This document shows positions 16,174 through 63,298 of a stretch of 63,401 nucleotides of DNA, piece by piece. Positions within the stretch are counted from its first letter, which is position 1. Every line of letters starts with the position of its first letter. Source of the DNA: a virus (Duplodnaviria; Caudoviricetes); the IMG/VR virus record IMGVR_UViG_3300025154_000092, positions 1 through 63,401 of that record, one strand, 5' to 3'. The translations under genes were made by a program, and so were the position numbers. The notes beneath the pieces were generated by a model. It was given only the letters and a program-made list of their open reading frames with translations. It did not search any database and had not been told where the DNA came from.

Positions 16174-18050
16174 GCAAAATCGACGAGACCGCAAAGCGTG
16201 CTCCTAAGAAGGAGACGTCACAGGCGCCTGCAGGAAAAGCCCGAGGTGTAGGCAAGGGCAACCTCGGGATGATGGACCTGGGCGCGTACCTGCGGGACCA
16301 CGGGCAGCCATTCCACGAAAAAAAGCTGCGAGACAAAGAGAAAGCCCACCTCACATACTTCGTACTCGAGAACGGGTGACTCTTCGACGAGAATCACCGG
16401 GGCGGTGAAGCGGCAATAGTGCAGTCACCTGAAAAGCCGTTCCTCTTCTACTTCTGCTATCACACCAGTTGCAAGAAGCACACATTCAAGGAAGCGCGGG
16501 CGAAGATCTCCGGCCAGGAGTCGCTGGCCAAGTATTACCCGGGGTATGACCCCAGCAAGCGGAGCAAGAAGCCAGGCACGGAGCTCGGCGCCGTGCTGGC
16601 AAAGTCAAGCATACCTTACCAGATTGAGTTTGAGTGCCTTTCACCCCGCATCCCCCCTCCCCACGAAGTAGACCCGTACACCTTCTTCGAAGAAGGTGCC
16701 AGGGGTACGCTGTCGTTTGTGCCGAAGCGGCTGGCGGATTACATGGCCGTGCTCCTGGGCCCCTTGTACGAGACCCTGGGGACCTGGTGGAGGTATGAAA
16801 ACGGGGTTTACCGGCGGATGGACGTTGGGGAGCTGCAGCACGTGGCGACAGTGGCATTGAGGGACCATGCTCGGCCGAACCAGGTGAACGCGGCCGTGGA
16901 GATTCTGGGGAACCTGGTTCGGCGCAGGCCCTCGGATTGGCCCAAGGAGAAACTCATAAACTGCCTGACGGGTATGTTGAACCCGGAGACGGGAAAGCTT
17001 GAGCCACACAGTCCTGCGTACCTGAGCCGGGTGCAGATAAAGTGCAAATATGACTGGAAGTATTTAGACGCGGCACAGCCGTTTATGGAGTTCCTGGAGG
17101 GGGCCCAGCCTGGAAAGGATAATGAGGCGTGCCGGACCATCCTGCACCGGTTTGGCGGGTATGTGCTGCTGCCTGACAACCGGTATGAGAAGGTGCTGCT
17201 CCTGAAGGGTGAGGGCGGGAATGGCAAAGGGACCTTTATCAACATCCTCAGCATGGTGATTGGAGAGGAGCACGTAAGCGCGTTGTCGCTGCATGACCTG
17301 GGAGAGCGGTTTAACACATACCGGCTGGAAACCTCGATCTTGAATGTTTCGACAGAGGTGAACCCTAAGAAGAGCGTTGAGACCGAGACGCTGAAGCAAG
17401 TGGTTTCCGGTGATCTGATCAAGGGCGAAGAGAAGTTCGGCAAGCAGTTCGAATTCAGGCCTAGGACGAAATGTATCTTCTCTCTGAACAAGAAGCCGAT
17501 CCTTCAGGACGTGGGGTATGCCCTGGAGCGCCGGCTGATTGTTGTGCCGTTTGACACGACATTCGAGGGCAAAACGAAGGTGGAAAGCATCTGGGACAGG
17601 TGCGTGGAAGGTGATGGGCGCCATGGCGTGTTTATGTGGATGGTGCTGGGCCTGGAGGAGCTGCTCAAGAACGGATTTGAGCTGACAGGCAGGGTGAAGA
17701 GCACAACGACGGCATTCCTGCGATCGCTAAACCCGGTGATGATTTTTGTCCAGGACGTATGTCGCCTACGACCTGGGGACAATAAGGTGTTTGTGGGCAC
17801 GGTAGAACTCTACAAGAGGTACGTGCAATGGTGCGGCCACACAAAGCACAAAGAGATGGCCAGGACGAACTTCTGGGACATCATTGAGAGCATTCCGGGA
17901 GTACGGCGGGGGTTGCACCATAAGACAAGGCAGGCGAATTTCTTTGGAATCGAAATTAAGCCTGAAGACCTGGGTGAAGAGGCAGAAGGTTATGATGATC
18001 TTGAGGAGGTCGACCCCTCGACCCCTCAACCCCGTACCCCCTCTTCTTAG
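16170..18050 (+). CDS. Zn-finger + D5/P4-type SF3 helicase, 626 aa if UGA at codon 70 is decoded (candidate selenoprotein)
   Basis: ORFs 16170..16379 and 16419..18050 are in one frame separated only by TGA 16377-16379; reads LENG-U-LFDENH...FCYHTSC; Walker A GEGGNGKGT; INCLTGML D5_N-like motif; C-terminal winged helix. Confidence 0.8.
16377..16408 (+). promoter_or_regulatory. UGA plus candidate bacterial SECIS hairpin
   Basis: TCACCG(16394-16399)-GGG-CGGTGA(16403-16408); loop starts after 20 nt from UGA and begins with G. Confidence 0.65.
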
Positions 18051-18065
18051 TTCGCCTTACTGTTA

Positions 18066-18358
18066 CCTTCACGAAGGTTTGGGCGAAGGGTAAACGAAGG
18101 TTTTGCGAAGGTTTTGCGAGTTGGCAAGTGTCTGAAAACATTAATGAACGAAGGTTGCGAAGGTTTTCAGTGAGGTTAGTCCTTACTATTATGCACATAC
18201 TATCTCCTATTTATTCTCTTTTTGTCACTCCGTGCGAAAGGAGTAGCTCAGAAACCTTCGCAACCTTCGTAGTGGAGGAAGATCAAACACTTAGAAGACA
18301 AAAAACCTTCGTAAAAACCTTCGGGAAACCTTCGGAATGGGGGGTAAAAACCTTCGTA
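18066..18358. other. Replication origin with oppositely oriented iterons
   Basis: Six CGAAGG(TT) copies (18072-18165) and six AACCTTCG copies (18253-18356) flanking an AT-rich core (~18175-18225), right after the helicase gene. Confidence 0.8.
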
Positions 18359-18644
18359 ACCGGTCCTGAAGTGACGTTAAGTAGGTGCATGAAATGATGG
18401 CTGGCGAGTGCATTATTCGGCCAGCGACGGGATCGGCCGCGGTATAAGGCGAAGGATAGTGAATGGAAGCGAAGGTAGCCAGGTGGGCTACCTTCAGAAA
18501 GGGGGGTGGGGGGCACGGGTGAACGCTTGAATCATGGTGCCGAAAACCCACGAAGAATGGGAAATGAATGGAAAGGTGGTGGTGGAAGTGAACCTGGATG
18601 GATTCGAGGTGTGAACCGGTGGATGTTTGTCAATTTTTAACGAA

Positions 18645-18684
18645 CACGACTTGCTAACTTTAGTGGATAAGTTAGCAAGTCGTG
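18645..18684. other. lox/dif-like recombination site
   Basis: Perfect 16-bp inverted arms CACGACTTGCTAACTT / AAGTTAGCAAGTCGTG with 8-bp asymmetric spacer TAGTGGAT, upstream of a tyrosine recombinase. Confidence 0.65.
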
Positions 18685-61856: not shown

Positions 61857-62212
61857 GAAAAGTGATGTTTTTTGTGCTGTTTGCGCTTTTTTGCTGGTGT
61901 GCGGTCGCGGTCGCCGATGACACGGAATACGAGCCGCTTGGGAAAAGCGTGGTGGCGAAGAGCGACGGGAGCGTCTCTTCTTTCACTCTCCCCACGGGAC
62001 GGGTGTACACGGCATTCATTACTCTCGAGGCCGGCGGGATACGGTTCTATTACGACGGCAGCACACCGGATCAGACAACGGGACATTATGCCCCGCCGGG
62101 GGCAAGTGTGGAGTGCCGGTCGACCGATGAGGTGAGAAACTTCAAGTGGACCATGGATTCGGCCTCGTCGGGGGTAACTGCGACGGTAACGTTTTTCGGC
62201 AAACGACAGTAA
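61853..62212 (+). CDS. Small beta-rich protein with signal peptide
   Basis: MRKVMFFVLFALFCWCAVAVA; AFITLEAGGIRFYYDGSTP. Confidence 0.7.
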   Translation: MRKVMFFVLFALFCWCAVAVADDTEYEPLGKSVVAKSDGSVSSFTLPTGRVYTAFITLEAGGIRFYYDGSTPDQTTGHYAPPGASVECRSTDEVRNFKWTMDSASSGVTATVTFFGKRQ

Positions 62213-62223
62213 GGGGGGGCAGC

Positions 62224-63267
62224 ATGAAGCGGATAATTTTTGCATGCTTTGTCATCCTGGCGCTCGGTGTCAGTGGGTACGTCGAGAGCCGATCATCGAG
62301 AATCAGCGTCCCAGCGACGTGGGAGGACAATGGCGACGGCTCTATATCGCCGATTGGCGGGAAGTCCGTAGCCATGCCCACTACGAATTTCGGCCCCTAC
62401 ACCGTTGCCACCCTCCCAGCGGCGTCGGAAGTTACAAACCATTATACGACCGTCACAGATGGCGCATCCTCCAGCGATTGTGCCGTTGGTGGCGGAACCG
62501 ATCAGGTTCTGTGCCGGTCAACAGGCGCGGCATGGGAGGCGGTAGGCAGCAGCCTTACACCAATTATTAAAACCCTCTCCGGCACCGAGTCGATGACCGC
62601 TATTAACGTCAGGGCGTTTTACGATCCGGGTGGAGCATCCAGGATAGTGCAATTACCTCCAGAGGCAGAGGGCGTTGTTGAAATAATCAACACGGCGGAT
62701 GCCTCCGAATCTCTCACCGTCAAGGATGACACCGGCACTACCACCTATGCAATCCTTGGACGATACGGCGGGGCGCAGTTTGTCTGCAACGGCACCACAT
62801 GGGCGGCAAATATCCCCAATTATTTTGCGGGAGATATCAATGTCCAGGGGTATATCCAGTTGCAGGGTGGAGCTGCGTACCTGACGCACATCAGCAATAA
62901 TGTAGTTATAAGTGGAGGGCAGCAGTACGATTTTCGGCCTAGCACTGGGATATTTTTGCTTGGCACACTAAACAAGCAACTCTCGCACCGCATCATCAAT
63001 GAAGCCGTGGCAGACGAAGCCGAAAAAACAATTGCAACTGGGGTTGCCGGATGGGGCTTTGCCCAGATTGGGGATGGGCAGGAGTATGCGCATTTCTCGT
63101 TTACCGCTGCTGGAGTCGTAACCCTTATCAACAACTCTGCAAATACAGTCGGGACGGATACAGATGCAAAGTTTTGCATCTATGACGCAGGAGCCGGAAT
63201 TGCCATCAAAAACAGGTTGGGGTCGGAACTGAAAATTATGGCCTCAGTTTTCTACGGCACCCCATGA
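62224..63267 (+). CDS. Tail-fibre-like protein with signal peptide; UGA-terminated form of a possible read-through fusion
   Basis: YTVATLPAAS..VTDG and KFCIYDAG..IKNRLGS fibre-type modules; N-terminal MKRIIFACFVILALGVSG. Confidence 0.7.
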   Translation: MKRIIFACFVILALGVSGYVESRSSRISVPATWEDNGDGSISPIGGKSVAMPTTNFGPYTVATLPAASEVTNHYTTVTDGASSSDCAVGGGTDQVLCRSTGAAWEAVGSSLTPIIKTLSGTESMTAINVRAFYDPGGASRIVQLPPEAEGVVEIINTADASESLTVKDDTGTTTYAILGRYGGAQFVCNGTTWAANIPNYFAGDINVQGYIQLQGGAAYLTHISNNVVISGGQQYDFRPSTGIFLLGTLNKQLSHRIINEAVADEAEKTIATGVAGWGFAQIGDGQEYAHFSFTAAGVVTLINNSANTVGTDTDAKFCIYDAGAGIAIKNRLGSELKIMASVFYGTP

Positions 63268-63298
63268 GCCGGGATAAATTCCGGTGGGGTCTCCACCG
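63265..63298 (+). promoter_or_regulatory. UGA plus candidate bacterial SECIS hairpin
   Basis: CGGTGG(63282-63287)-GGTCT-CCACCG(63293-63298); loop starts after 20 nt from UGA. Confidence 0.62.

What the first reader, a model, noticed from the sequence alone, without database searches (positions are those of the whole stretch)
16377..63298. Matched geometry of the two UGA sites suggests a selenium-coupled phage life cycle
Seen: both sites have 14 nt then a 6-bp stem built on a CACCG/CGGTG pairing, with a loop that begins GG at UGA+21. The other TGA stops I inspected by eye lack this arrangement, and many are in ATGA overlaps, so TGA is otherwise a normal stop. Inference: two such sites in unrelated genes (DNA replication and receptor binding) are harder to explain as random nonsense mutations. 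They point to a system where the host Sec machinery gates both replication and virion composition. The host should then encode selABCD, as many anaerobes do.
Basis: inference. Interest (0 to 1): 0.82.

Follow-up and report, generated by a model that had tools for sequence, protein, structure and literature searches.

The report
Phage genes with host-type selenocysteine signals
A 63-kb groundwater phage has two genes interrupted by a UGA codon, each followed by the hairpin its likely sulfate-reducer host uses to read UGA as selenocysteine, which would make these rare natural phage selenoproteins.

Summary
Both in-frame TGAs (16377, 63265) are followed by 14 nt, a perfect 6-bp stem and a loop starting GG (GGG; GGUCU).

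Site 1 replaces one of six invariant residues: the first Cys of a C-x5-H-x19-C-x4-C zinc finger in a P4/D5-type primase-helicase. All 35 distant relatives have TGT/TGC and none has the hairpin. Four close variants all end their upstream ORF at this codon. One lies in a Desulfobacterales-group genome (G158) that has selA, selB, selD and tRNA-Sec.

Site 2 is the normal C-terminus of a fibre-type domain. A complete SGNH esterase domain follows in frame, with no ATG/GTG/TTG before its catalytic Ser.

In 15 selenoprotein genes of G158 and its relative G001, 13 SECIS loops start GG (GGN or GGUCU), 17-23 nt after UGA, most often 20. Both phage sites sit at 20. None of 27 ordinary TGA stops in the phage has such a hairpin.

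Best reading (about 0.6): both UGAs are read as selenocysteine by the host SelB system. The first gives a complete primase zinc finger; the second gives a minor esterase-extended protein. Selenium gating of the life cycle is inference only, and nothing was shown at the protein level. I found no natural phage selenoprotein in print.

The parts
15451..16173 (+). Prim-pol (archaeo-eukaryotic primase type) ORF of 240 aa. Its TGA overlaps the ATG of the next ORF (ATGA).
   Evidence: It aligns with the N-terminal domain of the fused 837-842 aa relatives P0004 and P0005, which their source calls 'P4 family phage/plasmid primase-like'. It has no Pfam or PHROG hit of its own.
16170..18050 (+). Primase-helicase ORF of 626 codons with one in-frame UGA at codon 70. 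It comprises a linker, a CHCC zinc-binding domain, D5_N and an SF3/D5-type helicase.
   Evidence: Translation. Pfam DUF5906 3.7e-19, VapE-like, D5_N. The profile matches solved chain 7ola_A ('DNA primase') at 2e-34 over positions 209-584. dN/dS against G158 is 0.07.
16377..16379 (+). UGA-1, at the first ligand position of the zinc finger.
   Evidence: It aligns with an invariant Cys, one of only six invariant columns (C, F, H, C, H, C) in a 25-sequence alignment. All 35 relatives' loci have TGT or TGC here. The TGA is also present in G158. Four variant ORFs end here.
16394..16408 (+). SECIS-like hairpin 1: 6-bp stem, GGG triloop, loop starting 20 nt after the UGA.
   Evidence: it is part of the MFE fold of the 45-nt and 60-nt stretches, and scores -7.3 kcal/mol alone in context. 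It is identical in G158. It is absent from 35 of 35 Cys-bearing relatives.
16313..16429 (+). 117-nt block identical between the window and G158. It spans the UGA and hairpin 1, and includes an in-frame A_AAA_AAG heptamer at 16319-16325.
   Evidence: This is the longest perfect run in a 3.4-kb alignment that is otherwise about 83% identical, where dS elsewhere is about 1.1. Its fold is no more stable than shuffles (z = 0.03).
62224..63267 (+). 347-aa ORF with a signal-peptide-like N-terminus and a conserved ~90-aa C-terminal domain shared with phage fibre/tailspike-type proteins. It ends at UGA-2.
   Evidence: Translation. 39 homologues of the domain were found. In the 15 fetched, the domain sits at the very C-terminus. 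There is no Pfam or PHROG family. Atlas leads all score under 0.9.
63265..63267 (+). UGA-2, at the canonical stop position of the fibre-type domain.
   Evidence: Relatives stop 0-11 codons after the domain in 17 of 18 viral loci, with TAA (11) or TAG (6), never TGA. The exact 347-aa ORF is seen on 8 contigs.
63282..63298 (+). SECIS-like hairpin 2: 6-bp stem, GGUCU loop, loop starting 20 nt after the UGA. It encodes part of a Gly/Ser-rich linker.
   Evidence: -10.6 kcal/mol alone in context, and 5 of its 6 pairs are in the MFE of the 45-nt stretch. It is the only hairpin on the + strand with a GGTCT loop and a stem of at least 5 bp. Two G158 FdhA SECIS elements have the same loop. It is not part of the MFE of the 60-nt stretch.
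63268..63401 (+). Start of the in-frame extension: linker and block I (GDS) of the SGNH domain. It continues at window 131.
   Evidence: There is no ATG, GTG or TTG between the UGA and the GDS motif; the first canonical start is codon 30 of the downstream segment.
3..584 (+). SGNH/GDSL hydrolase domain. This is the same reading frame carried round the circle; 6-130 repeats 63277-63401.
   Evidence: Pfam Lipase_GDSL_2 2.6e-22, matching profile positions 1-178 of 178. phrog_6102 'lipase' 1.8e-22. In 16 of the 20 best non-self hits the domain starts at residue 66 or later of a larger protein.

Best explanation
Both UGA codons are read as selenocysteine. The host's SelB and Sec-tRNA(Sec) are recruited by bacterial-type SECIS hairpins that the phage carries inside its own coding sequence.

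At site 1, Sec takes the place of the first Cys ligand of a C-H-C-C primase zinc finger. A primase-helicase with a complete zinc finger is then made only when UGA 16377 is recoded. Termination there gives a 69-aa fragment.

At site 2, the UGA is the natural stop of a fibre-type protein. Termination gives the 347-aa protein. Sec insertion carries the ribosome through a Gly/Ser linker into an SGNH esterase domain, giving a longer form of about 540 aa, presumably in the minority.

Shown here: the anatomy, the Cys alignment, conservation of the stop in close relatives, purifying selection downstream, the match to host-family SECIS elements, and the Sec pathway in the host group.

Inferred: that SelB binds these hairpins, that Sec rather than another residue is inserted, the ratio of the two products, and any dependence of the phage on selenium supply.
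For: Site 1
- The UGA aligns with an invariant Cys. 35 of 35 relatives' loci carry TGT or TGC (some loci are the same contig in two collections).
- In a 25-sequence alignment the only invariant columns are C(=UGA), F, H, C, H, C.
- The domain folds with confidence (pLDDT 91.2). Its four best structural neighbours are all primase zinc-binding domains, but only weakly (Z 4.0-4.5).
- Its C-x5-H-x19-C-x4-C spacing is like the Zn-binding C-H-C-C finger of human PrimPol (C419, H426, C446, C451), which is needed for priming (PMC10415149, introduction passage).
- The stop is conserved. Four variants at 100, 91, 80 and 79% identity all end at ...YFVLENG. The exact ORF is seen on 10 contigs. The codon is TGA and the hairpin is identical in G158.
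- The gene downstream is under strong purifying selection: dN/dS 0.07 at dS 1.1-1.2. This includes the second half of the zinc finger: in the alignment I count 9 nucleotide differences across those 20 codons, none changing the protein (my count by eye).

Site 2
- A full-length SGNH domain follows in frame, with no canonical start before its catalytic Ser.
- Its relatives are mostly embedded in larger proteins: 16 of the 20 best hits.

Both sites
- The hairpins meet every structural criterion of the published bacterial SECIS consensus (PMC13188914, Fig. 2 legend). They also fit the published generalisation of a 6-8 bp stem with a conserved loop G about 20 nt after the UGA (PMC4605307, section 15 passage).
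- Fifteen real SECIS elements of G158 and G001 (FdhA x3, SelD x2, FlpD x6, Prx x4) have GG-start loops in 13 of 15 cases: GGN triloops in 11 and GGUCU in 2. Loops start 17, 18, 20 or 23 nt after the UGA, and offset 20 occurs five times, jointly the commonest with 23. The phage sites have GGG and GGUCU, both at 20.
- Controls: 0 of 27 ordinary TGA stops and 0 of 35 Cys-bearing relatives have such a hairpin. Synonymous recodings give one of the observed strength in 0.31% and 0.16% of trials.

Host link
- G158 holds a 5-kb integrated remnant that is 83% identical in nucleotides.
- G001, in the same family, holds relatives of the giant gene at 65-69% nucleotide identity.
- G158 has selA, selB, selD and tRNA-Sec.
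Against: - No protein, RNA or selenium data exist for this phage. No RNA run was listed.
- Sec at site 2 has no chemical rationale, no Cys homologue, and no relative that shares it: 0 of 18 viral loci and 0 of 209 order genomes.
- Hairpin 2 is not in the MFE fold of the 60-nt stretch, where competing pairings win. Hairpin 1's region folds no better than shuffles (z = 0.34 and 0.03).
- Among all 1,129 TGA trinucleotides the loose SECIS model is not enriched.
- No Rfam SECIS family matches either site. This is uninformative, because the host's own SelD SECIS is missed as well.
- The only DNA-level witness besides the window, G158, is a decaying remnant with a truncated prim-pol and a frameshifted helicase. 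The 117-nt identical block could be a recent recombination tract rather than long-term constraint.
- The stop-codon identity in variants P0205 and P0206 could not be read.
- The host assignment is by similarity to G158 and G001, not by isolation.
Confidence: 0.58

Rival explanations
1. Only site 1 is a Sec codon. Site 2 is an ordinary stop. The SGNH gene is then translated separately: by coupled re-initiation at a non-canonical codon (in-frame ATA at 63274 or 63301), with the hairpin sequestering a Shine-Dalgarno-like GGUGGGG. Alternatively it is a dead gene that lost its start.
For: - UGA-2 lies exactly where 17 of 18 viral relatives and all 15 fetched homologues end.
- Nothing aligns a Cys there.
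- The 5' arm and loop of hairpin 2 are purine and G-rich and lie 11 nt before ATA 63301.
- Stand-alone SGNH proteins that begin a few residues before the GDS motif exist among the hits, for example P0070 and P0098.
Against: - ATA is a very poor bacterial start codon (general knowledge, not tested here).
- Hairpin 2 is the only GGTCT-loop hairpin on the strand. It sits at the commonest SECIS distance used in the host family, and its loop is identical to two host FdhA SECIS loops. This model gives no reason for any of that.
- The SGNH domain is intact over the whole Pfam profile, so it does not look dead.
Confidence: 0.15
2. Neither UGA is recoded; both are real stops. At site 1 the clade has a stably split gene: a 69-aa peptide plus a helicase started at GTG 16419 that has lost a working zinc finger. 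At site 2 the stop is ordinary. The two hairpins resemble SECIS elements by chance.
For: - Gene callers started the helicase at GTG 16419 in several assemblies (P0003, P0161, P0159, P0162).
- A conserved stop is also what a fixed split gene would show.
- The G158 copy is visibly decaying.
- Neither region folds significantly better than shuffles at site 1.
Against: - Two independent chance hairpins that both fit the host model have a joint probability of about 7e-4 on the loosest model and about 1e-6 on the 6-bp model. Conditioned on the peptide sequences it is about 5e-6.
- The second half of the zinc finger is still under strong purifying selection. That makes little sense if the first two ligands are never attached.
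- 0 of 35 Cys-bearing relatives have the hairpin.
Confidence: 0.14
3. The UGAs are read through without the Sec machinery, by near-cognate tRNAs such as Trp or Cys. The downstream hairpins act as general read-through stimulators.
For: - UGA followed by C (site 1) is recalled to be a weak termination context in bacteria. This is recalled, not tested.
- It would explain the in-frame continuity at both sites without requiring Sec at a linker.
Against: - I know of no SECIS-independent, hairpin-stimulated UGA read-through in bacteria (recalled).
- Trp at a zinc-ligand position would not restore the finger.
- The loops match SelB-type SECIS loops of the host family rather than being arbitrary.
Confidence: 0.08
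4. Sequencing or assembly artefact, or a private nonsense mutation of one assembled genome.
For: The window is a metagenome-assembled virus record. Some of the contigs that repeat it may be re-assemblies of the same reads.
Against: - The exact ORFs ending at the two TGAs are on 10 and 8 contigs.
- The site-1 TGA is in an independent genome, G158, at 83% nucleotide identity.
- Three further protein variants end at the same codon.
- A contig of run X2 spans 60000-63401 with no differences, although X2 may be the source sample.
Confidence: 0.02

Closest known systems
Bacterial SECIS/SelB-dependent Sec insertion, as in formate dehydrogenase, SelD, MvhD/FlpD and peroxiredoxin genes of sulfate reducers
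   Same: An in-frame UGA is followed within the coding sequence by a small hairpin: 6-bp stem, loop starting GG, loop about 20 nt after the UGA. The loops (GGG, GGUCU), spacing and energy fall inside the range of 15 elements read from G158 and G001. They also fit the published consensus (PMC13188914 Fig. 2 legend; PMC4605307 section 15). Site 1 shows the classic Sec/Cys pairing with homologues.
   Different: The genes are phage genes and are not redox enzymes. At site 1 the residue is a ligand of a structural zinc finger in a primase. At site 2 the UGA is the natural stop of a complete protein and the 'selenoprotein' is a C-terminal extension, with no Cys counterpart. The 2026 review of prokaryotic selenoproteomes has no occurrence of 'phage', 'virus' or 'viral' in its main text.
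Poxvirus selenoproteins (glutathione peroxidase homologues of fowlpox and molluscum contagiosum virus)
   Same: A virus relies on the host's Sec machinery. In fowlpox the SECIS lies inside the coding region, 3' of the UGA (PMC8310308, section 2 passage).
   Different: Those are eukaryotic viruses with eukaryotic-type SECIS elements, and their enzymes were captured from the host with Sec in a redox active site. Here the elements are bacterial-type hairpins in phage replication and fibre-type genes whose relatives use Cys or a stop.
Programmed UGA read-through that extends a virion protein (the minor A1 read-through protein of RNA phage Q-beta; recalled, not checked here)
   Same: A leaky UGA at the end of a structural-type gene would give a major short form and a minor C-terminally extended form from one mRNA.
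   Different: In Q-beta the read-through is recalled to be by a normal tRNA without a dedicated factor. Here a SECIS-type hairpin suggests SelB-dependent insertion of Sec, in a dsDNA phage.
C-H-C-C (UL52-like) zinc finger of archaeo-eukaryotic primases such as human PrimPol, and primase zinc-binding domains in general
   Same: It follows a prim-pol domain. The ligand spacing C-x5-H-x19-C-x4-C compares with C-x6-H-x19-C-x4-C in PrimPol. The top structural neighbours are the zinc-binding domains of T4 gp61, Twinkle, and the Bacillus and Aquifex DnaG primases.
   Different: Structural similarity is weak (Z 4.0-4.5). Foldseek finds nothing at E <= 0.001, and no sequence-level match to a solved zinc finger was found. 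The first ligand is encoded by UGA.

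Membership tests
Bacterial Sec recoding site (bSECIS consensus, PMC13188914 Fig. 2 legend) | In-frame UGA with coding sequence on both sides | tested here: met
   Site 1: homology runs across the UGA. Site 2: a conserved domain lies before the UGA and a full SGNH domain after it in the same frame.
Bacterial Sec recoding site (bSECIS consensus, PMC13188914 Fig. 2 legend) | Apical loop of 3-9 nt on an upper stem of 4-16 bp | tested here: met
   Loops of 3 and 5 nt, each on a 6-bp Watson-Crick stem.
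Bacterial Sec recoding site (bSECIS consensus, PMC13188914 Fig. 2 legend) | At least one G in the first two loop positions (mostly G followed by G or U) | tested here: met
   The loops are GGG and GGUCU.
Bacterial Sec recoding site (bSECIS consensus, PMC13188914 Fig. 2 legend) | 16-37 nt between the UGA and the apical loop | tested here: met
   20 nt at both sites. The host family uses 17-23.
Bacterial Sec recoding site (bSECIS consensus, PMC13188914 Fig. 2 legend) | MFE of -7.5 kcal/mol or lower | tested here: met
   The 45-nt stretches from the UGA fold at -8.9 (site 1) and -12.9 kcal/mol (site 2). The hairpins alone, in context, score -7.3 and -10.6. The length over which the consensus energy is meant to be computed was not stated in the passage I read.
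Bacterial Sec recoding site | Cys-containing homologues align with the UGA | tested here: inconclusive
   Site 1: met, with 35 of 35 loci carrying Cys. Site 2: not met; relatives have their stop codon there.
Bacterial Sec recoding site | Host encodes selA, selB, selC (tRNA-Sec) and selD | tested here: met
   All four are over their cut-offs in G158. G001 has tRNA-Sec, selB and selD. That these genomes represent the host is inferred from an integrated remnant and related phage contigs.
Bacterial Sec recoding site | Match to a curated Rfam SECIS model | tested here: inconclusive
   Neither site matches, even at E <= 10. The host FdhA SECIS hits SECIS_3 at 47.5 bits, but the host SelD SECIS hits no SECIS model. 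The models appear to be gene-specific.
Bacterial Sec recoding site | Selenium is actually incorporated at the UGA; SelB binds the hairpin | not testable with these tools
   This needs 75Se labelling, mass spectrometry or reporter assays.
P4/D5-type primase-helicase | D5_N domain plus SF3 helicase (DUF5906/VapE-type) core | tested here: met
   Pfam PF19263 3.7e-19 and PF08706 at 24.8 bits (over its cut-off). PF05272 scores 24.5 bits, just under its cut-off of 25. PDB 7ola_A 'DNA primase' matches at 2e-34.
P4/D5-type primase-helicase | Zinc-binding domain between the primase and helicase parts with four metal ligands | tested here: inconclusive
   C, H, C, H, C are invariant in 25 sequences. The fold is confident. 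Similarity to solved primase zinc-binding domains is only weak. Metal binding is not testable here. The first ligand is encoded by UGA in the window.
SGNH/GDSL hydrolase | Full-length domain with the GDS, G, GxND and DxxH blocks | tested here: met
   PF13472 matches positions 1-178 of 178 at 2.6e-22. The blocks can be read in the translations (VGDSLT, GIGSQ, GGVND, DHIHP). Activity was not tested.
Phage tail fibre / receptor-binding protein | Recognised fibre or tailspike family, or virion association | tested here: inconclusive
   No Pfam or PHROG family. The C-terminal domain recurs at the end of viral proteins, some with beta-helix Pfam domains (P0188, P0203). Atlas neighbours (T4 gp9/10-like, fibre C-terminal) all score under 0.9. 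The signal-peptide-like N-terminus and the neighbouring Wzy_C/TPR gene would also fit a secreted surface-modifying protein.

The most novel reading that the evidence does not exclude
This phage has put two late-evolved checkpoints under the control of the host's selenocysteine machinery. (a) A priming-competent primase-helicase is made only when SelB and Sec-tRNA(Sec) recode UGA 16377, placing a selenolate ligand in the primase zinc finger. (b) An esterase-tipped version of a fibre-type protein is made only by Sec-dependent read-through of that protein's natural stop. Replication and the make-up of the particle (or of the cell surface) would then follow the host's selenium status and SelB capacity. 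These would be the first natural bacteriophage selenoproteins. Site 2 would be the first case of Sec insertion used as a programmed read-through device rather than for Sec chemistry.
Probability: 0.3. Interest if true: 0.92.

Novelty: new variant of a known kind. Interest (0 to 1): 0.82.

Why it matters
Selenocysteine recoding is known from cellular redox enzymes and from a few poxvirus genes captured from the host. In seven full-text searches and a 2026 review of prokaryotic selenoproteomes I found no natural bacteriophage selenoprotein. Supplementary tables were not available to me.

If these two sites are real, three things follow.
- Phages of Sec-using anaerobes can evolve their own SECIS elements de novo in non-redox genes.
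- Sec can serve as a zinc-finger ligand in a primase.
- SelB-dependent recoding can act as a regulated read-through switch that appends a domain to a protein.

It also has a practical consequence. Gene callers split such genes, as they did here in every assembly. Phage selenoproteins would therefore be missed systematically, and a targeted survey of viromes from sulfate-reducing and other Sec-rich communities becomes worthwhile. The hypothesis is directly testable with reporters and with 75Se or mass spectrometry.

Tried and rejected
No earlier notes were seen.
- The search for related loci with the single proteins P0001 and P0159 in viral contigs found no relative.
- Cultured phages gave no close relative: the primase matched at 29% identity at best and the terminase at 26% or less. 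No host could be drawn from isolates.
The window has no tRNA. The tRNA-Asp and tRNA-Val next to the G158 remnant share no att-like repeat with the window; the longest shared word with tRNA-Asp is 11 nt, elsewhere in the window.
- Rfam shows no SECIS family at either site. Controls show this is uninformative.
- Thermodynamic z-scores were unremarkable: site-1 60-mer z = 0.34 and the 117-nt block z = 0.03. The site-2 60-mer has z = -2.62, but its MFE uses other pairings.
- Sequencing runs: no RNA holder was listed. Laid contigs showed no variant, and the independent runs X5 and X6 have no listed piece between 63179 and 63276, so the laid pieces do not show the site-2 TGA.
- Site-2 relatives: P0002 matched 0 of 209 genomes of the order, and none of 18 viral loci has TGA plus a hairpin.
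- More TGA-bearing site-1 relatives were sought in the class (the same 209 genomes) and in a 401-genome sample of the phylum. Only G158 was found.
- Foldseek against the PDB with the zinc-domain model gave nothing at E <= 0.001.
- A -1 frameshift at the A_AAA_AAG heptamer was considered. By my reading, the -1 frame ends at a TGA inside hairpin 1, so a shift there cannot bypass UGA-1. Rejected as a way round the stop.
- A reassigned genetic code (TGA as Trp or Gly) was rejected. 27 of 62 picked ORFs end in TGA, and homologues have Cys at site 1.

Full report
WHAT THE WINDOW IS. The window is a virus record of 63,401 nt rated complete. Its last 125 bases repeat bases 6-130, so it is a circularly permuted genome of about 63.3 kb. 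Almost all long ORFs lie on the + strand. There is no tRNA and no Rfam family at gathering score. Recognisable genes include:
- a cytosine methylase, a DHH-type protein, an AntA/D5-like protein and a small tyrosine recombinase at 18752-19414;
- a major head protein and a connector-type protein;
- a 4,669-codon ORF;
- a Wzy_C/TPR membrane protein.

THE OBSERVATION.
- TGA 16377: 14 nt, then TCACCG, GGG, CGGTGA.
- TGA 63265: 14 nt, then CGGTGG, GGTCT, CCACCG.
TGA is otherwise an ordinary stop. Of 62 + strand ORFs that I picked by hand, 27 end in TGA, 22 in TAA and 13 in TAG. With the fibre ORF added, 10 of 28 TGA-ended ORFs overlap the next start as NTGA.

SITE 1. The ORF from ATG 16170 to 18050 reads through one UGA at codon 70. 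It carries D5_N and DUF5906/VapE-type helicase domains. As a profile it matches the solved 'DNA primase' 7ola_A at 2e-34.
- Relatives found by protein search align across the UGA. Two of them, P0004 and P0005, have the upstream prim-pol ORF (15451-16173) fused in one chain.
- In every relative whose DNA I could read, the UGA position is TGT or TGC. That is 7 loci from viral and GTDB contigs and 28 of 31 metagenome loci; the other three do not cover the site. Several loci are the same contig held in two collections, so 35 is an upper count of witnesses. One of the two scanning patterns required Cys, which biases the sample, but the other did not.
- A 25-sequence alignment of the domain has only six invariant columns: C (the UGA), F, H, C, H, C, spaced C-x-F-x3-H-x19-C-x-H-x2-C.
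- AlphaFold gives a confident four-strand-plus-helix domain (pLDDT 91.2). Foldseek finds no solved match at E <= 0.001. The exhaustive aligner ranks four primase zinc-binding domains first (T4 primosome, Twinkle, Bacillus DnaG, Aquifex DnaG), but only at Z 4.0-4.5, which is weak by the tool's own notes.
- The ligand spacing is that of the C-H-C-C finger of human PrimPol (Cys419, His426, Cys446, Cys451). That finger binds zinc and is required for priming but not for polymerisation (PMC10415149, abstract and introduction passage).
So UGA-1 stands at the first ligand of a primase zinc finger.

THE STOP AT SITE 1 IS CONSERVED IN THE CLOSE CLADE.
- The exact 69-aa ORF ending at the UGA is on 10 contigs.
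- A search for short relatives found three more variants at 91, 80 and 79% identity. All end at the same residue...YFVLENG. The 80% variant differs at five of the last twenty residues, so it is not merely a copy of the same block.
- One variant lies in genome G158. There a ~5-kb integrated remnant next to tRNA-Asp and tRNA-Val holds two small HTH genes, the last ~140 nt of the prim-pol gene, the helicase, iterons and the integrase.
- Window 16030-18521 is 83% identical to it. The TGA and hairpin are present and unchanged.
- The helicase has dN/dS 0.07 at dS 1.1-1.2, both before and after a frameshift that breaks the G158 copy.
- Just downstream of the identical block, by my count on the alignment, the 20 codons holding the second half of the zinc finger differ at nine nucleotides and at no amino acid.
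- The longest perfect run of the whole alignment, 117 nt, is centred on the TGA (16313-16429). This may reflect nucleotide-level constraint or a recent recombination tract. I cannot tell which, and the block's fold is unremarkable.
A random or private nonsense mutation is therefore very unlikely. A stably split gene remains possible, but it fits poorly with continued selection on the second half of the finger.

SITE 2. The ORF 62224-63267 (347 aa; on 8 contigs) starts with a signal-peptide-like segment and ends with a ~90-aa domain.
- The domain has 39 database relatives. In all 15 that I fetched it lies at the very C-terminus of otherwise very different proteins, some carrying beta-helix Pfam domains and many with similar hydrophobic N-termini.
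- In 18 viral loci, 17 stop 0-11 codons after the domain (11 TAA, 6 TAG). One runs on for 230 codons as a natural fusion.
- UGA-2 is therefore the family's normal stop position, not a replaced Cys.
- What follows is unusual. In the same frame come a Gly/Ser-rich linker and a complete SGNH hydrolase domain (Pfam positions 1-178 of 178, 2.6e-22; all four blocks can be read). No ATG, GTG or TTG precedes the catalytic Ser; the first canonical start is codon 30, past the GDS motif.
- An exhaustive profile-free search found 4,375 relatives of the SGNH part. In 16 of the 20 best non-self hits the domain begins at residue 66 or later of a larger protein.
- The 'receptor-binding' label is plausible but unproven. 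There is no Pfam or PHROG family, and the Atlas leads all score under 0.9. The neighbouring Wzy_C/TPR gene would also fit a secreted surface-modifying protein.

HOST AND ITS SEC SYSTEM.
- The closest GTDB relative of the primase lies in G001, whose record title reads 'uncultured Desulfobacterales bacterium'.
- G158 is in the same family.
- One member of the helicase's 90% cluster carries the source name 'Deltaproteobacteria bacterium'.
- G001 also holds contigs 65-69% identical in nucleotides to the phage's giant gene.
- G158 has tRNA-Sec (73.6 bits), selB (391 bits), selA (619 bits) and a selD with its own in-frame TGA. G001 has tRNA-Sec, selB and a Sec-type selD.
- Both genomes hold many genes with a single in-frame TGA in FdhA, FlpD/MvhD and peroxiredoxin families.
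The phage itself was found only in groundwater metagenome runs of three studies.

COMPARISON WITH THE HOST FAMILY'S OWN SECIS ELEMENTS. I read the sequence after the Sec codon of 15 such genes.
- Taking the longest stem, 13 of 15 apical loops start GG. Eleven are GGN triloops and two FdhA loops are GGUCU. Two peroxiredoxin loops are AGUU.
- Stems are 5-9 bp.
- Loops start 17 (3 genes), 18 (2), 20 (5) or 23 (5) nt after the UGA.
- The phage sites have 6-bp stems and loops GGG and GGUCU, both at 20 nt.
- Their energies (-7.3 and -10.6 kcal/mol in context) lie within or just beyond the host range of -4.5 to -9.7.
They also satisfy all four structural criteria of the published bacterial consensus (PMC13188914, section 5 and Fig. 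2 legend). And they fit the statement that SECIS hairpins generally have a 6-8 bp stem with the conserved loop G about 20 nt after the UGA (PMC4605307, section 15).

CONTROLS.
- With the exact host loops (GGTCT, GGA, GGG), offsets 17-20 and a stem of at least 5 bp, 144 of 63,276 positions qualify with G-U pairs allowed and 16 with Watson-Crick only. Among 1,129 TGAs the Watson-Crick version picks exactly the two sites. There is a single GGTCT-loop hairpin on the strand.
- With the general model (GG-start loop of 3-7 nt, offsets 17-23), the base rates are 2.7%, 0.42% and 0.12%. It hits 0 of 27 ordinary TGA stops and 0 of 35 Cys-bearing relatives.
- The three other TGA hits of the Watson-Crick 5-bp model (41026, 53661, 61918) and the extra hit of the model (38903) are out of frame by my arithmetic on the ORF coordinates.
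- Synonymous resampling gives the observed strength in 0.31% and 0.16% of recodings.
- Against this, the loose model is not enriched over all TGAs (38 of 1,129 against 2.7%). Global folding z-scores are unimpressive at site 1. Hairpin 2 loses to alternative pairings in a 60-nt fold. Rfam's SECIS models do not match, but they also miss the host's SelD element.

INTERPRETATION. The simplest account of all this is that both UGAs are Sec codons served by phage-borne, host-type SECIS hairpins. My estimates are about 0.75 for site 1, about 0.6 for site 2 and about 0.58 for both.
- Site 1 is a textbook Sec/Cys pair in an unusual place: a zinc-finger ligand.
- Site 2 would be a new use, in which Sec insertion serves as a read-through device that appends an esterase domain to part of the protein population.
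- The rivals are: only site 1 is recoded; both are real stops with chance hairpins; SECIS-independent read-through; artefact. They are set out with their odds in the rival list.

NOVELTY. Full-text searches returned no natural bacteriophage selenoprotein. For most of those papers I saw only the search listings. A review of viral recoding names only poxvirus cases, in the passages I read (PMC8310308). A 2026 review of prokaryotic selenoproteomes does not contain the words phage, virus or viral in its main text. The library also lacks most subscription journals.

Noticed in passing
window 46061-60070: A single 4,669-codon ORF fills 22% of the phage genome. Contigs C98 and C95 of G001 hold relatives at 65-69% nucleotide identity. 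Its function was not examined.
   Followed up: partly
window 46902-46936: Five tandem copies of the heptamer GAGGACA lie inside the giant ORF. Most of the 41 matches in G158, spread over many contigs, fall on this repeat, often as tandem runs. This may be a genome-wide heptamer repeat of the host group and a weak extra host link.
   Followed up: no
window 18050-18400: Iteron-like repeats (ACCTTCG / CGAAGGT words) lie between the helicase and the integrase, probably the origin. Several perfect runs of 31-63 nt are shared with G158.
   Followed up: partly
window 16319-16325: An in-frame A_AAA_AAG heptamer, the classic bacterial -1 slippery sequence, lies 52 nt before UGA-1, inside the 117-nt block that is identical in G158. 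By my reading, the -1 frame ends at a TGA inside hairpin 1. Its meaning is unknown.
   Followed up: partly
window 16170-16173; L106 about 9650-9760 (minus strand): The prim-pol and helicase parts are separate ORFs joined by an ATGA overlap in the window. They are one chain in P0004 and P0005. In G158 two small indels put the linker back into one frame with the upstream remnant.
   Followed up: partly
L106 6000-10900 (G158:C59): The G158 element is a decaying ~5-kb remnant beside tRNA-Asp and tRNA-Val. The prim-pol gene is reduced to its last ~140 nt and the helicase is split by a frameshift into 325- and 247-aa ORFs. The integrase and iterons are kept.
   Followed up: yes
window 19560-19595; L106 about 5950-5990: A conserved palindromic word (GGGAYTGGAGTCCC followed by a C-run) lies downstream of the integrase in both the window and G158. 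It may be the att core or a terminator.
   Followed up: partly
window 60204-61856: A 550-aa protein with an O-antigen ligase/polymerase-type Wzy_C domain and TPR repeats lies two genes before the UGA-2 gene. Together with the SGNH domain and the signal-peptide-like N-terminus, this could be a surface-polysaccharide modification module rather than virion genes.
   Followed up: no
window 1-5 versus 63272-63276: The first five bases of the record differ from the copy at the other end and look like the reverse complement of the record's last bases, probably an assembly end artefact. A contig of run X2 spans 60000-63401 and runs on.
   Followed up: partly
L179 (viral contig of 358,038 nt), match at 1501-1755: In one large viral contig the same fibre-type C-terminal domain runs on for 230 more codons without a stop. 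This is a natural direct fusion of a further domain at the position where the window has UGA-2.
   Followed up: no
P0167 (536 aa): One homologue carries the fibre-type C-terminal domain twice in tandem.
   Followed up: no
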